DNA of 4,285 nt from a plasmid. Positions 1-4,096 of the stretch are shown here, one piece after another. A program made the position numbers and the translations under genes. Under the pieces are notes generated by a model that saw nothing but the letters and a program-made list of their open reading frames with translations, was not told where the DNA came from and made no database searches. The stretch lies in assembly GCF_057098645.1 (NCBI RefSeq), contig NZ_JBXSPU010000005.1; one strand, 5' to 3'. Within the stretch, counting starts at the first letter, position 1. The number at the start of each line of letters is the position of its first letter.

Positions 1-915
1 ATGAGCGCCGCGCTTCAATACTTCGAAGAAAATTTACCTCATCGTCCCTATCACACGGATGATCTCGCTTTCGGCCTTCGCATCTCCGGCAAAGGGCGCG
101 CTCTTCTTGCGCGGTACATCCAGCAGAACCAGCCTCATGCGCAGTTCTGGCTGGTTTTTGACGTTGACCGCGAGGGGGCAGCGATTGACTGGAGTGACCG
201 GAACGCTCCCGCGCCGAACATCACCGTAAAAAATCCTGTGAACGGTCATGCTCACCTGCTCTACGCGCTCAATATCGCCGTGAGAACCGCGCCGGACAGC
301 TCGGTTAAGGCGCTGAAATACGCCGCTGCGATTGAACGTTCGCTGTGTGAGAAACTTTGTGCTGATGTGAACTACAGCGGACTGATTTGTAAAAATCCGT
401 TCCACCTGGAATGGCAGGTGATGGAGTGGCGAGAGGAAGCCTATACCCTCGGTGAACTGGCTGATTATCTCGATTTGAGTGCCTCAGCGCGCCGTAGCAT
501 CGATAAACGTTACGGGATGGGGCGAAACTGCCACCTGTTCGAAATGACGCGCAAATGGGCTTACAGGGCGATTCGTCAGGGCTGGCCAGCATTCTCACAG
601 TGGCTTGATGCCGTGATTCAGCGTGTCGAAATGTACAACGCATCGCTTCCCGTTCCGCTTTCTCCGGCTGAATGTCGGGCTATTGGCAAGAGTATTGCGA
701 AATACACGCACAGGAACTTCACGCCGGAAACTTTCGCACAGTATGTGGCTGATACGCACACGCCAGAAATTCAGGCTACACGCGGTCGCAAGGGCGGTTC
801 TAAGTCTAAGCGCGGCACAGTAGCTACATCAGCACGCACGCTGAAACCTTGGGAGAAATTAGGGATCAGTCGCGCCTGGTATTACCAACTGAAAAAACGA
901 GGTCTCGTAGAGTAG
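1..915 (+). CDS. rep: ColE2-family plasmid replication initiator Rep (origin-specific, primase-type initiator)
   Basis: Uninterrupted 304-codon ORF from ATG at 1 to TAG at 913-915. The translation resembles, from memory, Rep of ColE2/ColE3-type plasmids (about 300 aa), for example WSDRNAPAPNITVKNPVNGHAHLLYAL, NYSGLICKNP and RQGWPAFSQWLDAVIQRVEMYNASLPVPLSPAECRAIGKSIAKYTHR. A ColE2-like origin sequence follows the stop directly, as in that family. The start coincides with the window edge, so upstream signals cannot be checked here. Not verified by search. Confidence 0.88.
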   Translation: MSAALQYFEENLPHRPYHTDDLAFGLRISGKGRALLARYIQQNQPHAQFWLVFDVDREGAAIDWSDRNAPAPNITVKNPVNGHAHLLYALNIAVRTAPDSSVKALKYAAAIERSLCEKLCADVNYSGLICKNPFHLEWQVMEWREEAYTLGELADYLDLSASARRSIDKRYGMGRNCHLFEMTRKWAYRAIRQGWPAFSQWLDAVIQRVEMYNASLPVPLSPAECRAIGKSIAKYTHRNFTPETFAQYVADTHTPEIQATRGRKGGSKSKRGTVATSARTLKPWEKLGISRAWYYQLKKRGLVE

Positions 916-966
916 ACCAAATAAGCCTATATCAGATAACAGCGCCTTTTTGGCGTCTTTTTAAGC
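916..966 (+). other. ColE2-type origin of vegetative replication (Rep binding and priming site)
   Basis: ACCAAATAAGCCTATATCAGATAACAGCGCCTTTTTGGCGTCTTTTTAAGCAG lies immediately 3' of rep. It closely matches the ColE2-P9 origin region as I recall it (...AGATAAGCCTTATCAGATAACAGCGCCCTTTTGGCGTCTTTTTGAG...). It contains a small hairpin CGCC(TTTTT)GGCG followed by a T-run, which could also act as the rep terminator. Exact minimal-origin boundaries are not determinable by eye. Confidence 0.6.
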
Positions 967-1030
967 AGCTTGGTTTGTTGCTATTTCCCTCGTTGAATCC
1001 CGCAATGGCGCGGCTTTCCGTATGATTGAG

Positions 1031-1130
1031 GTGGTAGCGCTCGCCGCAGTCTCATGACCGAGCGTAGCGAGCGAATGAGCGAGGAAGCGCAACGGTGTCC
1101 GGTGGTGCATGTGGCACTTACGCGCCGGGG
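1031..1130. other. Segment resembling the ColE1/pMB1 ori-downstream region (candidate single-strand initiation / primosome assembly site)
   Basis: GCGCTCGCCGCAGTCTCATGACCGAGCGTAGCGAGCGAATGAGCGAGGAAGCG (1037-1089) is roughly 80% identical by eye to the pBR322/pUC segment GCTCGCCGCAGCCGAACGACCGAGCGCAGCGAGTCAGTGAGCGAGGAAGCGGAAGAGCGCC, which lies about 100-200 bp downstream of the pMB1 ori. Weaker similarity (GGTTTCTCC...) continues to about 1160. The reference sequence is recalled from memory. The functional assignment as a PriA-type pas is inference. Confidence 0.45.
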
Positions 1131-1140
1131 TTTCTCCGTT

Positions 1141-1407
1141 CTACGGTTTCGCAGGTGGTTTGGGTAGCTTCTCCAGCTCGTTAATCAGCGGTTGTATCCG
1201 GTTCACATCGGCCTGTCTTGTGACTTCCTTTCGCAGGAACTGGAGCAGGAACGCACGCAGTTGCGCCTCTTCCGGCCTCCGTACCCTCGCCAGCATGGCA
1301 GCCCCCACAATGACTTTTTGCGCCGTGTCCAGGCTCCGGCTCTTCGCCTTCAGGCGCTGCAATCTGGCCTCAGTTTCGGCAATCTTCTGTTCGAGTGTTC
1401 TGCTCAT
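1141..1407 (-). CDS. mobC: Mobilization accessory protein MobC (RSF1010 MobC-like)
   Basis: 88-codon ORF on the minus strand with ATG at complement of 1405-1407 and stop at complement of 1141-1143. GGAG Shine-Dalgarno at complement of 1415-1418 with a 7-nt spacer. An N-terminal coiled-coil-like segment (LEQKIAETEARLQRLKAKSR) is followed by DTAQKVIVGAAMLARV, matching the conserved core of RSF1010 MobC as I recall it (ETRRKVLVGAMILAKV). It is divergent from mobA with an oriT-like sequence between them, as in RSF1010. Confidence 0.8.
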   Translation of the reverse strand: MSRTLEQKIAETEARLQRLKAKSRSLDTAQKVIVGAAMLARVRRPEEAQLRAFLLQFLRKEVTRQADVNRIQPLINELEKLPKPPAKP

Positions 1408-1431
1408 TTTGTGACTCCGTGCGCGGTGAAA

Positions 1432-1487
1432 AATCGCATTTTAGCGCGTCACTGGTAGTTTAAAAACTGAGCTGGCATAATGCACGG
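1432..1487. promoter_or_regulatory. Candidate divergent promoters for mobC (minus strand) and mobA (plus strand)
   Basis: Plus strand: extended -10-like TGgCATAAT (1473-1481), about 100 nt upstream of the mobA ATG and just before the oriT-like inverted repeat. Minus strand: TAAAAT (complement of 1438-1443), about 30 nt upstream of the mobC ATG. The -35 elements are weak on both strands. By-eye match to sigma70 consensus only. Confidence 0.3.
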
Positions 1488-1491
1488 CATA

Positions 1492-1546
1492 TCACGAAGT
1501 GCGCACTTATACAATCTTCACTTCGTTTCGATTGTGTGCGCCCTGC
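1492..1546 (+). other. Candidate origin of transfer (oriT) with MOBQ/RSF1010-like nic region
   Basis: Inverted repeat ACGAAGTG (1494-1501) / CACTTCGT (1521-1528), which includes the 12-bp palindrome AAGTGCGCACTT (1496-1507). It is followed 7 nt later by GTGCGCCCT (1536-1544), matching the RSF1010/R1162 nic sequence TAAGTGCG|CCCT as I recall it. Predicted nick between 1540 and 1541 on the plus strand. The position between divergent mobC and mobA fits IncQ-type mob modules. Confidence 0.5.
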
Positions 1547-1585
1547 GGGGCTGAAAGAAAACGGCAAAAAGGCATTACGGCAGAA

Positions 1586-3805
1586 ATGGCGATTTATCAT
1601 CTCAGCATGAAAATCATTTCGCGAAAAAACGGCTACAGTGCCGTTGCTTCTGCTGCCTACCGTTCCGGCTCTGTCATACCCGATGACCGTACCGGATTAA
1701 TCCACGATTACACCCGTAAACGCGGCGTTGATGATGCGGTCATTCTCACCCCTGCGAATGCACCGTCCTGGTGTGGTGACCGTTCCGTTCTCTGGAATGC
1801 GGTCGAGAAAGCCGAACAGCGCCGGAACTCCCAGCTGGCAAGGGAGATTGAACTCGCCATTCCCCGTGAGATTTCCCGCGAGGCCGCACGGGAGGCCGTT
1901 CTCGCTTTTGTCCGGGAAAACTTTGTCAGTCGGGGCATGATTGCCGATGTGGCGTTCCATCATATGGACCGGACCAACCCCCATGCACACATCATGCTGA
2001 CCACGAGAGCTGTCGGGGAAACGGGATTCGCAGGAAAGGTCAGGGACTGGAACGACCGGGCACTCGCCGAGACGTGGCGCGCATCATGGGCTGACCATGC
2101 GAACAGAGCGCTTGCGAACGCCGGCTACCAGGAAGAGATAGACCATCGTTCATACGAGCGTCAGGGACTGGAGAAAGCGCCGGGCCTTCACCTCGGAAAG
2201 GCTGCCTGTGCGATGGAAAAACGGGGCATGGAAACAGAACGCGGTGAGCAGAACCGCCTGATTAACAGCCTTAACCTGGAAATACAGGTTTCCCGCACAA
2301 GGCTGGCAGTCATCCAGGTACAGGAGAACGTGCGGAAACGGGAACTCAGCGATGCCGCACGTCGTGCAGCGGAAGCCCTTAATCTGACCATTCCCGCCGC
2401 GAATGCCTCAGCGGATACCCTGCGGGAATTCATTGCCACACTGCCGCAGGAATGCGGGAACGCATGGGAGATGACACCGGAGTTCGTGGCGATGAACGGG
2501 AAGGCAAACGACATCAAACGTGAGGGGAATGCGCTGGTGAAAGAGCGGGATATTCTCGAAAAAGAGATGACCGGACTCAGAAAAGCCCGTCCGGTAGCGT
2601 CCATCCTGTCAGAGCTTCCCCTGATGACATGGGCTGAACCGGAATACCGCAAAAGACAACTCCGCTTCTGGAAACTCGAGAAACAGATTGAATCTCTTCT
2701 CCGCACCTACAGGGCCGTGAAAGAACGGGACATTCCCGTCCGTCGTCAGGCCTTTGAAACGCAGTGGAATACGTGGATTTCGCCGGGAATGGCAGAGCTG
2801 AAAGAAAAACTGTCAGCACGGGAAGCGGAGCGGCGCAGGGAGGAAGCCGAAGCGGAAGCGCGCCGGAAGGAACAGGAATATGACGCACGGCTGAAACACC
2901 ATGATAACCATCGCCTGAGCCGAGAAACGGCATTAGCCGGGGTTATTACGGAGCTGGGGCGTGCCAGAGAGCCGGGAACGGGCAGGATAACCCGCTACAT
3001 GATGCTGAGTAACAGAGCCGGAGAATTCACGGTATGGGGTGATGAGCTGGCGCATTACCCCCAGAGTGTTCATGACCCGGTGAATGTTTACCTGTCGCCA
3101 GGCGGGGCTGTGATGGTCTCGGATATACGTGAGGGAATGCCAGAATCTCATGAGACGATGGCGCGGCCTGAGCGTGTGAGAATGTATTCCGGTGCGACGG
3201 TCCGGCATGTACTGGAACAGATGCGCCAGGGGTGGCCCTCTTACGGTTTTCCGGCGCTGCCGCATCACTGGCCGGATAATTTTTATTTCAGCGACGACCG
3301 CAGGCCCGCAGCCTCTCCGCTGCCGTCAGCGCACCGGGTGGACGTCACCGCTTATGCGGCACCGGAGCAACTCATGCCCGTTGTCTTTTCGACAGAGCGA
3401 AACAGCAGGACGCTGAATCTGCTGTTGTGCGAAGGGCCGGAGGAAATGCTTGTCGGTTTTGTGCGCCTGGAGGACGAGCTGCGTCCCGTTCTTGCGCTTC
3501 CGTCGCCGGATTACAGTCATCTGATGGTAAGCATCATCACAGAGAACGGGATACACCTGGCAGGCTACGGTGAGGCCATAAACCGTGATGCTGATACTCC
3601 GTACCCACCGGAACCGAAGCTGATGCAGTTCAGGCTTAAGGGCTGTCAGGACACGCTTTTTGCTGCCATCAACAAACCGGAAGAGATGCCGGATTATCTC
3701 TTCCGTCAACTCGGATTTAATCAGACCTGGCATGAATGGAAGCGGGACGAACAGCACAGGCAACAACAACGACGCCCCGGACATTACCGGGGCATGAGTA
3801 TGTGA
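1586..3805 (+). CDS. mobA: Mobilization relaxase MobA (MobA/MobL family, MOBQ), with a long C-terminal region of unrecognised function
   Basis: Frame is open from GTG 1499 to TGA 3803-3805. I place the start at ATG 1586 because the product then begins MAIYHLSMKIISR, the canonical N-terminus of MOBQ relaxases (RSF1010 MobA begins MAIYHLTAKTGSR). Catalytic Tyr25 is at codon 1658-1660 and the histidine-triad motif HHMDRTNPHAHIM at residues 125-137 (about 1958-1996). WADHANRALANAGYQEEIDHRSYERQG also matches RSF1010 MobA (WADHANRALERAGHDARIDHRTLEAQG). No strong Shine-Dalgarno precedes 1586, so the start is not exact. Residues from about 240 to 740 have no motif I recognise. Confidence 0.9.
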   Translation: MAIYHLSMKIISRKNGYSAVASAAYRSGSVIPDDRTGLIHDYTRKRGVDDAVILTPANAPSWCGDRSVLWNAVEKAEQRRNSQLAREIELAIPREISREAAREAVLAFVRENFVSRGMIADVAFHHMDRTNPHAHIMLTTRAVGETGFAGKVRDWNDRALAETWRASWADHANRALANAGYQEEIDHRSYERQGLEKAPGLHLGKAACAMEKRGMETERGEQNRLINSLNLEIQVSRTRLAVIQVQENVRKRELSDAARRAAEALNLTIPAANASADTLREFIATLPQECGNAWEMTPEFVAMNGKANDIKREGNALVKERDILEKEMTGLRKARPVASILSELPLMTWAEPEYRKRQLRFWKLEKQIESLLRTYRAVKERDIPVRRQAFETQWNTWISPGMAELKEKLSAREAERRREEAEAEARRKEQEYDARLKHHDNHRLSRETALAGVITELGRAREPGTGRITRYMMLSNRAGEFTVWGDELAHYPQSVHDPVNVYLSPGGAVMVSDIREGMPESHETMARPERVRMYSGATVRHVLEQMRQGWPSYGFPALPHHWPDNFYFSDDRRPAASPLPSAHRVDVTAYAAPEQLMPVVFSTERNSRTLNLLLCEGPEEMLVGFVRLEDELRPVLALPSPDYSHLMVSIITENGIHLAGYGEAINRDADTPYPPEPKLMQFRLKGCQDTLFAAINKPEEMPDYLFRQLGFNQTWHEWKRDEQHRQQQRRPGHYRGMSM

Positions 3806-4068: not shown

Positions 4069-4096
4069 GGTACGTACAACAGGAGTTATGGTAAAT
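4069..4096 (+). other. cer-like Xer site-specific recombination core (XerC arm, 6-bp central region, XerD arm) for plasmid multimer resolution
   Basis: GGTACGTACAA (4069-4079), CAGGAG (4080-4085), TTATGGTAAAT (4086-4096). The right arm is identical, and the left arm has one mismatch, to the ColE1 cer arms as I recall them (GGTGCGTACAA / TTATGGTAAAT). The central region is 6 bp (cer has 8; psi and dif have 6). About 170 bp of upstream sequence is available as accessory region. Confidence 0.7.

What the first reader, a model, noticed from the sequence alone, without database searches (positions are those of the whole stretch)
916..1160. Mosaic replication region: ColE2-type ori followed by a pMB1/ColE1-like segment
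A ColE2-type origin at 916-966 is followed about 70 bp later by a block (1037-1089) that strongly resembles the region just downstream of the pMB1/ColE1 ori, where lagging-strand priming signals reside. The plus-strand orientation here equals the direction of leading-strand travel in pBR322, which predicts that replication proceeds rightwards, away from rep. Together with an IncQ-like mob module and a cer-like site, the backbone appears assembled from modules of at least three plasmid lineages.
Basis: partly seen in the sequence, partly recalled or inferred. Interest (0 to 1): 0.45.

Follow-up and report, generated by a model that had tools for sequence, protein, structure and literature searches.

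The report
ColE2 origin with ssiA priming hairpin
This is the ordinary, long-known replication region of a colicin-E2-type plasmid: a tiny origin where the plasmid's own primase starts one DNA strand, followed about 100 bases later by a conserved hairpin, shared with ColE1/pBR322-type plasmids, that most likely lets the host load its helicase and primase to copy the other strand.

Summary
Window 913-946 is a ColE2-type origin. It is identical to pColE8 and to a colicin-E2 plasmid, and its core is invariant in 9 ColE2-type loci. Window 1023-1132 is the only stretch of the window with DNA similarity to ColE1 (70/90 identical, E 1e-16; alignment score 75-80 against 22±2 for shuffles).

In ColE1-type plasmids the matching segment lies roughly 100 nt or more downstream of the origin, in RNA II sense. 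That is the position of ssiA, the PriA-dependent primosome assembly site for lagging-strand synthesis.

Seventy-six distinct homologues support a 54-nt hairpin (window 1037-1090). It is 99.7% paired, and five pairs carry compensatory changes. Orientation relative to the origin is constant: 10/10 ColE2-type loci and 14/14 ColE1-type loci.

The "mosaic" reading holds. Eight more distant ColE2-family replicons keep the origin motif or the rep gene but lack this element. The same hairpin also occurs in Rep_3 and repBA-type replicons.

None of this is peculiar to this plasmid. It is the standard backbone of ColE2-ColE9 plasmids, and an ssi in ColE2 was reported in 1991.

Verdict: correct reading, already known, low interest.

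The parts
1..915 (+). rep gene: ColE2-type initiator-primase (304 aa)
   Evidence: ORF. Pfam Replicase PF03090 (E 7.7e-44) + PriCT_1 PF08708. 99.7% identical to pColE8 Rep.
913..946 (+). ColE2-type minimal origin (Rep binding and priming site). The presumed primer template AGA is at 934-936, inside the conserved ATCAGATAAC.
   Evidence: Identical in pColE8 and a colicin-E2 plasmid. Core AGCCTATATCAGATAACAGCG invariant in 9 ColE2-type loci. TATCAGATAACAGC-like motif found downstream of rep in 7 of 9 further ColE2-family replicons sampled, with Rep identities 32-77%. The AGA primer and the 32-bp origin come from the literature (PMC5304414, PMC6856555, PMC9743546). The exact borders are my inference.
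942..962 (+). Hairpin GCGCC-TTTTT-GGCGT plus T run: terminator-like element for rep transcription, overlapping the right end of the origin
   Evidence: Terminator scan. Compensatory GCGGC/GCCGT in L006. Function inferred.
963..1022 (.). Spacer between origin and ssiA; less conserved, partly deleted in L006
   Evidence: Alignment A3.
1023..1132 (+). ssiA-family module (phiX174-type primosome assembly site, homologous to ColE1/pMB1 ssiA); single copy in the window
   Evidence: blastn versus ColE1 70/90, E 1e-16. pBR322-type 57/70. Shuffle control. Covariance model hit 1020-1140 +, 109 bits, with no other hit on either strand with filters off.
1037..1090 (+). Conserved hairpin of the ssiA module. 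Pairs: 1037-1041/1086-1090, 1044/1083, 1045-1047/1079-1081, 1054-1055/1075-1076, 1059/1071, 1062-1063/1067-1068.
   Evidence: RNAalifold on 76 distinct homologues. 99.7% of cells paired, 5 pairs with compensatory changes, covariation 0.235 versus 0.100 in shuffles (0/500) and at most 0.053 in slid controls. Coordinates.
1117..1123 (+). CTTACGC motif about 27 nt 3' of the hairpin, conserved at the same offset in many homologues; role unknown
   Evidence: YTKACGC present at the same offset in 41 of 76 distinct homologues (alignments).
1141..1407 (-). mobC (88 aa relaxase accessory protein of the MOBQ4 module); marks the right boundary of the replication region
   Evidence: ORF. Annotated MobC in related records. 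PMC6856555. No Pfam hit.
1408..1585 (.). 178-bp oriT between mobC and mobA (context for the mosaic claim)
   Evidence: The length and position match the 178-bp MOBQ4 oriT defined experimentally in PMC6856555. RSF1010-like GTGCGCCCT motif at 1536-1544.
1586..3805 (+). mobA, MOBQ-family relaxase (context for the mosaic claim)
   Evidence: Pfam MobA_MobL PF03389, E 2.3e-70. Annotated MobQ relaxase in related records.
4069..4096 (+). cer-like XerC/XerD core GGTACGTACAA-CAGGAG-TTATGGTAAAT (context for the mosaic claim)
   Evidence: Pattern match to a cer-type consensus that I wrote from memory. No blastn similarity to ColE1 cer at E<=0.01.

Best explanation
The region is the complete cis-acting replication apparatus of a ColE2-type plasmid.

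Step 1 (known from the ColE2 literature). Rep (1-915) binds the roughly 32-bp origin (913-946) and makes the 3-nt primer ppApGpA. The likely site is the AGA at 934-936.

Step 2 (known). DNA polymerase I extends the primer. The rightward direction is inferred from the primer's strand. Extension peels off the + strand.

Step 3 (inferred by homology, position, strand and covariation). After about 100 nt the displaced + strand contains the ssiA module (1023-1132). Its 54-nt hairpin (1037-1090) folds in single-stranded DNA and is recognised by host PriA. PriA nucleates the PriA-PriB-DnaT-DnaC-DnaB-DnaG primosome.

Step 4 (inferred). DnaB then moves 5'->3' on the + strand, rightwards with the fork. 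DnaG primes lagging-strand synthesis back towards the origin, and Pol III takes over.

The ssiA module is a portable cassette homologous to ColE1/pMB1 ssiA. The ColE2-E9 subgroup carries it downstream of an origin of unrelated ancestry, which makes the region a mosaic. That mosaic is old, fixed and already described.
For: - Homology to the ColE1 ssiA region: 70/90 identical, E 1e-16. Alignment score is more than 20 sd above shuffles.
- Position in ColE1: roughly 110 nt downstream of the origin, estimated from RNAI at 645-749 minus. In the window, 103 nt separate AGA (934) from the hairpin start (1037).
- ssiA is the PriA primosome site for the lagging strand of ColE1-type origins (PMC3167613).
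- Constant strand and order: the ColE2 origin lies upstream on the same strand, 97-126 nt from origin start to core, in 9/9 loci, plus L094. RNAI lies upstream on the opposite strand in 5/5 and 9/9 ColE1-type loci.
- Folded-strand constraint: 5 compensatory pairs, 99.7% pairing, controls far lower. The covarying columns were unconstrained in the search pattern.
- Conservation: the hairpin core is invariant among ColE2-type loci while the spacer varies. It is retained in a non-mobilizable plasmid (L006) and alongside a different mob module (L003-L005).
- The region is 99% identical in a colicin-E2 plasmid. An ssi in ColE2 was reported by Nomura et al. 1991 (title cited).
- No DnaA box nearby.
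Against:
- Thermodynamic folding gives no significant z-score on either strand (+ strand -0.11, - strand -1.51).
- Covariation cannot tell DNA from RNA. It separates the two strands only weakly: 4 G-T wobble cells favour the + strand and 1 cell favours the - strand.
- The direction of ColE2 replication, and the identification of this block with the 1991 ColE2 ssi, rest on my memory of papers that were not retrievable.
- Eight more distant ColE2-family replicons lack the element. It is therefore not essential to the ColE2 mechanism as such.
Confidence: 0.85

Rival explanations
1. The block is an inert scar of a past recombination with a ColE1-type plasmid and has no function in this backbone.
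For: It is the only ColE1-similar DNA in the window. More distant ColE2-family replicons do without it.
Against: - The hairpin core is invariant while the adjacent spacer and 3' flank diverge.
- Five base pairs are maintained by compensatory changes, including changes between ColE2-type variants (GCGCT/AGCGC versus GTGCT/AGCAC versus GTGCC/GGCGC).
- Strand and distance from the origin are fixed in 10/10 ColE2-type loci.
- No near-identical donor exists; the best non-ColE2 core identity is 91% over 57 nt.
Confidence: 0.03
2. The conserved hairpin acts as RNA, for example as a 3'-UTR or terminator structure of mobC (minus strand) or of rep read-through (plus strand), rather than as single-stranded DNA.
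For: Covariation supports a folded strand but does not say whether it is DNA or RNA. The block lies directly 3' of the mobC stop on the minus strand. In the Rep_3 plasmid L092 a copy also abuts the mobC stop.
Against: - The element keeps its structure in contexts with no mobC: ColE1-type plasmids, L006, repBA-type replicons and a MobV plasmid.
- In L092 it is inverted relative to mobC, so it cannot be the same mobC 3' element.
- No T run follows the hairpin on either strand.
- A terminator-like hairpin already ends rep at 942-962.
- The common denominator of all contexts is a nearby replication origin with fixed polarity.
Confidence: 0.05
3. Its main or additional role is in conjugation: it lies on the transferred strand and primes complementary-strand synthesis in the recipient. 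This is not exclusive of the replication role.
For: An RSF1010-like nick motif GTGCGCCCT, preceded by an inverted repeat, lies on the + strand of oriT (1494-1544). If that strand is the one nicked, the + strand is transferred 5'->3'. ssiA would then sit about 450 nt from its 3' end, which is ideal for one priming event to copy nearly the whole strand.
Against: - The nick strand is ambiguous: the palindrome AAGTGCGCACTT gives an even better match on the minus strand.
- The Rep_3 plasmid L092 has the same oriT module but the ssi inverted.
- The non-mobilizable L006 keeps the element.
- Orientation tracks the origin, not oriT.
Confidence: 0.15
4. It is a priming signal of another class: G4-type (DnaG alone) or ABC-type (DnaA-box hairpin), not PriA-dependent.
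For: The class cannot be read from sequence with certainty. Several ssi classes exist in plasmids (title of Nomura et al. 1991).
Against: There is direct homology to ColE1 ssiA, which is described as PriA-dependent (PMC3167613). No DnaA-box-like sequence lies between 740 and 1425.
Confidence: 0.03

Closest known systems
ColE1 / pMB1 (pBR322, pUC) ssiA, also called rriA, n' site or PAS-BL: PriA-dependent primosome assembly site for lagging-strand synthesis
   Same: - Homologous sequence: 78% over 90 nt with ColE1, 81% over 70 nt with a pBR322-type contig, and 84-86% in the 57-nt hairpin core.
- Same hairpin with compensatory changes.
- Same strand relative to leading-strand travel.
- Same distance, about 100-110 nt, from the leading-strand start.
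   Different: - It sits behind a Rep-primase origin instead of an RNA II/RNase H origin.
- It carries the 'type B' allele (TCTCATGAC...GCGAATGAGCG) rather than the ColE1/pMB1 'type A' allele (CCGAACGAC...GTCAGTGAGCG).
- The closing stem reads GCGCT/AGCGC instead of CCGCT/AGCGG.
ssi of plasmid ColE2 (Nomura et al. 1991, Gene 108:15-22) and the ColE2-P9 origin (Yasueda 1989; Yagura 2006)
   Same: The window's origin-plus-block is 99% identical to that of a colicin-E2-encoding plasmid. It is also conserved in a ColE9 plasmid whose origin reads AGACCAGATAAGCCTTATCAGATAACAGCGCC. From memory, the ColE2 ssi lies about 100 bp downstream of the origin and resembles the ColE1-type PAS.
   Different: Nothing substantive. 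The window is a pColE8-like backbone without the colicin operon. I could not read the 1991 paper to confirm its coordinates.
phiX174 n' (PriA) recognition site
   Same: The proposed mechanism is the same: a hairpin in SSB-coated single-stranded DNA that activates PriA and nucleates the primosome (PMC3167613).
   Different: No sequence comparison was made here. The phage site primes complementary-strand synthesis of a viral single strand, not the lagging strand of a theta replicon.
RSF1010 ssiA/ssiB and R6K ssiA (plasmid-primase-specific and DnaA-box 'ABC' priming signals)
   Same: These are also single-strand initiation hairpins placed next to plasmid origins (PMC4538821).
   Different: They are recognised by RepB' primase or by DnaA respectively. 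There is no homology with the window's block, no DnaA box is present, and the ColE2 Rep primase acts at the origin, not at this hairpin.

Membership tests
ColE1-type ssiA (phiX174-type, PriA-dependent primosome assembly site) | Sequence homology to the experimentally defined ColE1/pBR322 ssiA segment | tested here: met
   70/90 identical to ColE1 1306-1395, E 1e-16. 57/70 identical to a pBR322-type contig. Score 75-80 versus shuffles 22+/-2. Covariance model built on 76 homologues scores 109 bits.
ColE1-type ssiA (phiX174-type, PriA-dependent primosome assembly site) | Lies on the strand displaced by leading-strand synthesis (the lagging-strand template), a short distance downstream of the leading-strand start | tested here: met
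   Same strand as the origin's AGA and 103 nt downstream of it. Same order and strand in 10/10 ColE2-type loci. RNA II sense in 14/14 ColE1-type loci. The direction of ColE2 replication itself is taken from the literature and memory.
ColE1-type ssiA (phiX174-type, PriA-dependent primosome assembly site) | Forms a defined hairpin as a single strand | tested here: met
   14-pair consensus structure, 99.7% paired, 5 pairs with compensatory changes, controls much lower. Thermodynamic z-scores alone are not significant.
ColE1-type ssiA (phiX174-type, PriA-dependent primosome assembly site) | Supports PriA/PriB/DnaT/DnaC/DnaB/DnaG-dependent, rifampicin-resistant priming on single-stranded DNA (M13 ori-defective assay; factor Y ATPase effector) | not testable with these tools
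   Requires experiment. Reported for an ssi of ColE2 in Nomura et al. 1991 (title only seen).
ColE1-type ssiA (phiX174-type, PriA-dependent primosome assembly site) | Absence of the marks of other ssi classes (a DnaA box in the hairpin for the ABC type) | tested here: met
   No TTWTNCACA-like site (up to 1 mismatch) between 740 and 1425.
ColE2-type (class C theta) replication origin | Small origin immediately downstream of a rep gene that encodes a primase-type initiator (PF03090 + PriCT) | tested here: met
   Rep Pfam domains. The origin starts at the rep stop codon. PMC6856555 gives the same Pfam pair for ColE2-like initiators.
ColE2-type (class C theta) replication origin | Conserved origin core that includes the primer sequence AGA | tested here: met
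   ATCAGATAACAGCG is invariant in 9 close loci. It is found with 0-2 mismatches downstream of rep in 7 of 9 further ColE2-family replicons sampled, with Rep identities 32-77%. The AGA primer is stated in PMC5304414.
ColE2-type (class C theta) replication origin | Two direct repeats within the 32-bp origin | tested here: inconclusive
   CAAATAA (918-924) and CAGATAA (933-939) are an imperfect pair. The ColE9-type origin in L094 has a perfect CAGATAA twice. The repeat statement comes from PMC6856555.
ColE2-type (class C theta) replication origin | Specific Rep binding, ppApGpA synthesis and Pol I dependence | not testable with these tools
   Experimental properties (PMC9743546, PMC4538821).
   MobA_MobL domain, E 2.3e-70, and a GTGCGCCCT nick-like motif. 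However, the module corresponds to the MOBQ4 family with a non-homologous MobC and a 178-bp oriT (PMC6856555). It is not IncQ/MOBQ1 proper.

The most novel reading that the evidence does not exclude
The ssiA hairpin may be a free-standing, horizontally exchanged helicase-loading cassette. On this reading it has been plugged into at least five unrelated kinds of replicon:
- ColE1 RNA II origins;
- ColE2-E9 Rep-primase origins;
- a Rep_3 iteron plasmid, where it is inverted next to the same mobC;
- repBA-pseudoknot replicons;
- a 2-kb MobV plasmid.

Its orientation alone would then predict fork direction in uncharacterised plasmids.

A corollary concerns the AAGCGG string usually quoted (from my memory) as the n'-site consensus. 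In this family it forms one arm of a covarying closing stem (AGCGG, AGCGC, AGCAC, GGCGT). That would mean PriA reads the shape of the hairpin rather than that sequence.
Probability: 0.35. Interest if true: 0.35.

Novelty: already known. Interest (0 to 1): 0.15.

Why it matters
For this window it matters little. The finding correctly re-derives textbook plasmid biology: the ColE2 origin plus its single-strand initiation site.

It has three practical uses.
- It annotates a feature that database records leave blank. The block is "none" or "hypothetical protein" in every record seen.
- It fixes the predicted direction of replication of this backbone.
- It shows that the ssiA hairpin is a recognisable structural element, supported by covariation, that Rfam does not model.

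The covariance model built here (R1) could be used to annotate lagging-strand priming sites, and hence fork polarity, across thousands of small enterobacterial plasmids.

Tried and rejected
- **Thermodynamic folding.** I folded both strands of the block and of the ColE1 counterpart. No z-score was significant, so stability alone neither supports nor assigns a strand. Covariation was used instead.
- **Rfam.** No family covers the block; only RNAI, PK-repBA and unrelated sRNAs were found in the comparison loci.
- **Primary literature.** Hiraga 1994, Yagura 2006, Takechi & Itoh 1995, Lilly & Camps 2015 and Kim 2020 are not held. Searches for a text placing the ColE2 ssi also failed. The equation with the 1991 ssi therefore rests on its title and on my memory.
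- **DnaA-box search for an ABC-type signal.** Nothing near the block.
- **Second copy (an ssiB analogue).** A covariance model run with filters off found none on either strand of the window or of ColE1.
- **Transferred strand from oriT.** This was ambiguous because the nick-like motif is partly palindromic. The supplements of PMC6856555 do not give nic.
- **Recent recombination with a ColE1 plasmid.** Rejected: no donor exceeds 91% identity in the 57-nt core, and the flanks have diverged.
- **Vector contamination.** Many genome-contig hits in non-enterobacterial genomes appear to be cloning-vector contamination. They add no diversity beyond what de-duplication kept.
Full report
**What the window is.** The 4285-base window is the backbone of a small ColE2-type plasmid.
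- It starts at the ATG of rep (1-915).
- It runs through a non-coding stretch (916-1140), mobC on the minus strand (1141-1407), a 178-bp intergenic oriT (1408-1585), mobA (1586-3805) and a non-coding tail.
- A megablast against 72,556 plasmid records finds 1582 matching records. The best is pColE8 (98.6% identity over 99% of the window). Colicin E2, E8 and E9 plasmids and colicin-less 4.2-4.3-kb relatives are among the top hits.
- Rep carries Pfam Replicase (PF03090) and PriCT_1 (PF08708). MobA carries MobA_MobL (PF03389).
- This is the domain pair and the MOBQ4-type mobilisation module that PMC6856555 describes for ColE9-J-like plasmids, including the 178-bp oriT.

**Check of the observation: the origin.**
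- The sequence ACCAAATAAGCCTATATCAGATAACAGCGCC (916-946) follows the rep stop codon directly.
- It is identical in pColE8 and in a plasmid that encodes colicin E2.
- In an alignment of nine ColE2-type loci, the core AGCCTATATCAGATAACAGCG is invariant while the sequence to its left varies.
- A ColE9 plasmid whose Rep is 77% identical has AGACCAGATAAGCCTTATCAGATAACAGCGCC at the same place.
- Six more distant ColE2-family plasmids have a TATCAGATAACAGC-like motif downstream of rep. They come from Edwardsiella, Enterobacter, Klebsiella, Psychrobacter, Aeromonas and Proteus, with Rep identities of 32-69%.
- The literature held here states that the ColE2 origin is a 32-bp element downstream of rep with two direct repeats (PMC6856555). 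It also states that Rep synthesises the primer ppApGpA there, which Pol I extends (PMC9743546, PMC4538821), and that AGA is the primer sequence (PMC5304414).
- I place the AGA at 934-936. That placement is an inference.
One homologue shows a compensatory change in that hairpin.

**Check of the observation: the ColE1-like block.**
- blastn of 900-1200 against ColE1 (NC_001371) aligns window 1034-1123 with ColE1 1306-1395: 70 of 90 identical, same strand, E 1e-16.
- A Smith-Waterman comparison gives scores of 80 (ColE1) and 75 (a contig with a pBR322-type origin, L033: window 1023-1092, 57/70 identical). For 300 dinucleotide-preserving shuffles the scores are 22-23 ± 2, with a maximum of 32.
- A whole-window comparison with ColE1 finds no other similarity.
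- In the plasmid collection more than 5000 records match the block, mostly at 80-93% identity over 55-100 nt.

**What the block corresponds to in ColE1-type plasmids.**
- In the ColE1 record, Rfam places RNAI on the minus strand at 645-749. RNA II and leading-strand synthesis therefore run on the plus strand.
- Using the textbook distance from the RNAI start to the origin (from memory), the origin falls near 1197-1213. The homologous hairpin then begins about 100-110 nt downstream of it.
- That is the position of ssiA, the n' primosome assembly site. PMC3167613 describes it as the PriA-dependent site for lagging-strand synthesis, exposed when Pol I extends the primer.
- The same geometry holds in four further ColE1-type plasmids and in nine more from Pectobacterium, Pantoea, Cedecea, Mixta and relatives. 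In all of them RNAI lies upstream on the opposite strand and the block is in RNA II sense. That makes 14 of 14.

**Geometry in ColE2-type plasmids.**
- In the window, pColE8, three other E. coli plasmids, an E. marmotae plasmid and three contigs from the species-level genome collection, the ColE2 origin lies upstream of the block on the same strand. The distance from origin start to the conserved core is 97-126 nt.
- The ColE9 plasmid L094 adds a tenth case.
- From AGA (934) to the first paired base of the hairpin (1037) is 103 nt, almost the same spacing as in ColE1.
- The element persists in a non-mobilizable plasmid (L006) and in plasmids with a different mobC/mobA pair (L003-L005). It therefore goes with the replicon rather than with the mob genes.

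**Evidence that the element works as a folded single strand.**
- A degenerate pattern scan of one genome per species returned 78 loci. Together with the plasmid loci these gave 76 distinct 121-nt versions.
- RNAalifold predicts a 14-pair hairpin.
- On this structure, 99.7% of 1061 cells are standard pairs. Five pairs carry compensatory double changes, totalling 80 cells.
- The covariation score is 0.235. Column shuffles give 0.100 (0 of 500 reach the observed value), and sliding the partners by 1-3 columns gives at most 0.053.
- The closing stem is the clearest case. It reads CCGCT/AGCGG in ColE1 and pMB1, ACGCC/GGCGT in Cedecea, Pantoea and Mixta plasmids, GTGCT/AGCAC in several ColE2-type plasmids, GCGCT/AGCGC in the window and pColE8, and GTGCC/GGCGC in E. 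marmotae.
- All covarying columns were N or lay outside the search pattern, so the pattern did not impose them.
- In window coordinates the pairs are 1037-1041/1086-1090, 1044/1083, 1045-1047/1079-1081, 1054-1055/1075-1076, 1059/1071 and 1062-1063/1067-1068.
- Thermodynamic folding alone is uninformative (z = -0.11 on the plus strand and -1.51 on the minus strand).
- Wobble pairs favour the plus strand only weakly. The strand assignment therefore rests mainly on the constant polarity relative to origins.

**Mechanism.**
- Shown or documented elsewhere: Rep primes at the origin and Pol I extends. ssiA of ColE1-type origins recruits PriA and hence DnaB and DnaG for the lagging strand.
- Shown here: homology, position, strand, conservation and a covariation-supported hairpin.
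- Inferred: rightward Pol I synthesis from 934 displaces the plus strand. Once about 100-170 nt are displaced, the hairpin folds and PriA assembles the primosome on it. DnaB then travels 5'->3' on the plus strand, with the fork and away from rep, and DnaG primes the lagging strand.
- No DnaA box lies near the block, which argues against an ABC-type signal.
- A covariance model built from the 76 sequences finds exactly one copy in the window, with filters off, and none on the minus strand.

**The mosaic claim.** It is supported, with three qualifications.
- *The element is restricted to one subgroup.* Among ten further ColE2-family plasmids, chosen by decreasing Rep identity, the two with Rep above 75% identity (a colicin-E2 plasmid and the ColE9 plasmid L094, 77%) carry the element. 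The eight with Rep at or below 69% gave no hit on either strand with the covariance model, filters off. Seven of those eight keep the origin motif. The search covered at most 1.5 kb downstream of rep, and less where a record ended. The ssiA cassette is therefore confined to the ColE2-E9 subgroup and is shared with ColE1-family plasmids, which fits acquisition of a foreign module.
- *It is old and fixed.* The best non-ColE2 match to the 57-nt core is 91%. ColE1 is 86% and pMB1-type 84%. The flanks have diverged.
- *There are two allele groups.* The window's allele belongs to a type B group (TCTCATGAC...GCGAATGAGCG). ColE1-family plasmids of plant-associated and other Enterobacterales also carry it. 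ColE1 and pMB1 carry type A.

- The mob module is shared at about 84-87% identity with a 4064-bp plasmid whose Rep is a Rep_3 iteron initiator. This is as PMC6856555 reports for MOBQ41 versus MOBQ42.
- A XerC/XerD-type core is present at 4069-4096.

**Comparison with what is known, and novelty.**
- The closest known entities are ColE1/pBR322 ssiA and the ssi of ColE2 itself.
- The ColE2 ssi is named in the title of Nomura et al. 1991 (Gene 108:15), which is cited in PMC6856555 and PMC6854812.
- From memory, that ssi lies about 100 bp downstream of the ColE2-P9 origin and resembles ColE1-type primosome assembly sites. I could not open the paper to confirm the coordinates.
- The window's origin-plus-block is 99% identical to that of a colicin-E2 plasmid. 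I therefore regard the finding as already known.
- The parts not in the texts I could read are the covariation-supported structure, the two allele groups, and the spread of the same cassette into Rep_3, repBA-type and MobV plasmids. These are modest extensions, not a new kind of system.

**Verdict.** The feature is the standard ColE2-type origin followed by its ssiA-family lagging-strand priming hairpin. Confidence in this explanation is about 0.85. Novelty: already known. Interest: low (0.15).

Noticed in passing
L092 (NZ_CP141203.1) 1008-1130 minus strand; compare window 1023-1132 plus strand: A 4064-bp Rep_3 iteron plasmid has iterons at 686-773, an AT-rich repeat region from 826, and rep on the minus strand from about 591. 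It shares mobC-oriT-mobA with the window from window 1163 onwards. It also has an ssiA-family hairpin abutting the mobC stop, but inverted relative to mobC. DnaB loaded there would travel towards the iterons and rep. The orientation therefore tracks the replicon, not the mob module.
   Followed up: partly
L037 5121-5241 and L042 3316-3436: The same ssiA-family hairpin (94-105 bits with model R1) lies about 1.1 kb downstream, on the same strand, of a PK-repBA pseudoknot (Rfam RF01089). It is therefore placed behind an IncB/K/Z/FII-like repA and origin, a further replicon type using this cassette.
   Followed up: no
L010 (NZ_CP047458.1, 2028-bp plasmid) 1483-1604: A 2-kb plasmid encodes only a MobV relaxase and a MarR-like protein. 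It has no RNAI and no recognised rep, yet carries a strong ssiA-family hairpin (104 bits; 91% identical to the window's core). Its mode of replication is unclear.
   Followed up: no
window 1117-1123 (CTTACGC): A YTKACGC motif sits at a fixed offset, about 27 nt 3' of the hairpin, in 41 of 76 distinct homologues from both ColE1-type and ColE2-type plasmids. The sequence between it and the hairpin is variable. No pairing partner or role was found.
   Followed up: partly
window 942-962: The hairpin GCGCC-TTTTT-GGCGT followed by a T run overlaps the right end of the ColE2 origin and looks like the rep terminator. The E. marmotae homologue has the compensatory GCGGC/GCCGT. The origin's right arm may thus serve both as a DNA site and as an RNA terminator.
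   Followed up: partly
window 901-918: The inverted repeat GGTCTCGTAGAGTAGACC spans the rep stop codon and the left edge of the origin. The scan scored it as a minus-strand terminator-like site followed by T-rich sequence. It is present only in the pColE8-like subgroup; the L004-type rep 3' ends differ.
   Followed up: no
window 1494-1544 (oriT): Inverted repeat ACGAAGTG/CACTTCGT (1494-1501/1519-1526) is followed by GTGCGCCCT (1536-1544), which resembles the RSF1010 nick region. The perfect palindrome AAGTGCGCACTT (1497-1508) gives an equally good nick-like match on the minus strand. The nicked strand cannot be called from sequence.
   Followed up: partly
window 4069-4096: GGTACGTACAA-CAGGAG-TTATGGTAAAT matches a XerC box, 6-nt spacer and XerD box (cer-like multimer resolution core). 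No blastn-level similarity to ColE1 cer was detected.
   Followed up: partly
L014-L091 (genome-contig hits), e.g. L017 7792-7912, L028 5436-5556: Many hits to the ssiA pattern come from genomes of Streptomyces, Cutibacterium, Paracoccus, Hymenobacter, various MAGs and others. They sit on short contigs whose flanks read like pUC/pBR322 vector sequence. This is most likely cloning-vector contamination of the assemblies.
   Followed up: no
L098 (Klebsiella OXA-232 ColKP3-type plasmid), about 190 nt downstream of its ColE2-like origin: This distant ColE2-family replicon lacks the ssiA-family hairpin. It has a DnaA-box-like TTATCCACG inside a GC-rich stretch at roughly the position where ssiA sits in the window. 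That raises the possibility of a different class of priming signal.
   Followed up: no
alignment A2, columns 31-36 and 54-57 (window 1050-1055 and 1072-1075): The ssiA hairpin comes in two allele groups: type A (CCGAACGAC...GTCAGTG) and type B (TCTCATGAC...GCGAATG). There is one apparent recombinant (L073). Linked G-C to A-T changes occur at columns 43/50, and C-G to T-A changes at 36/57.
   Followed up: partly
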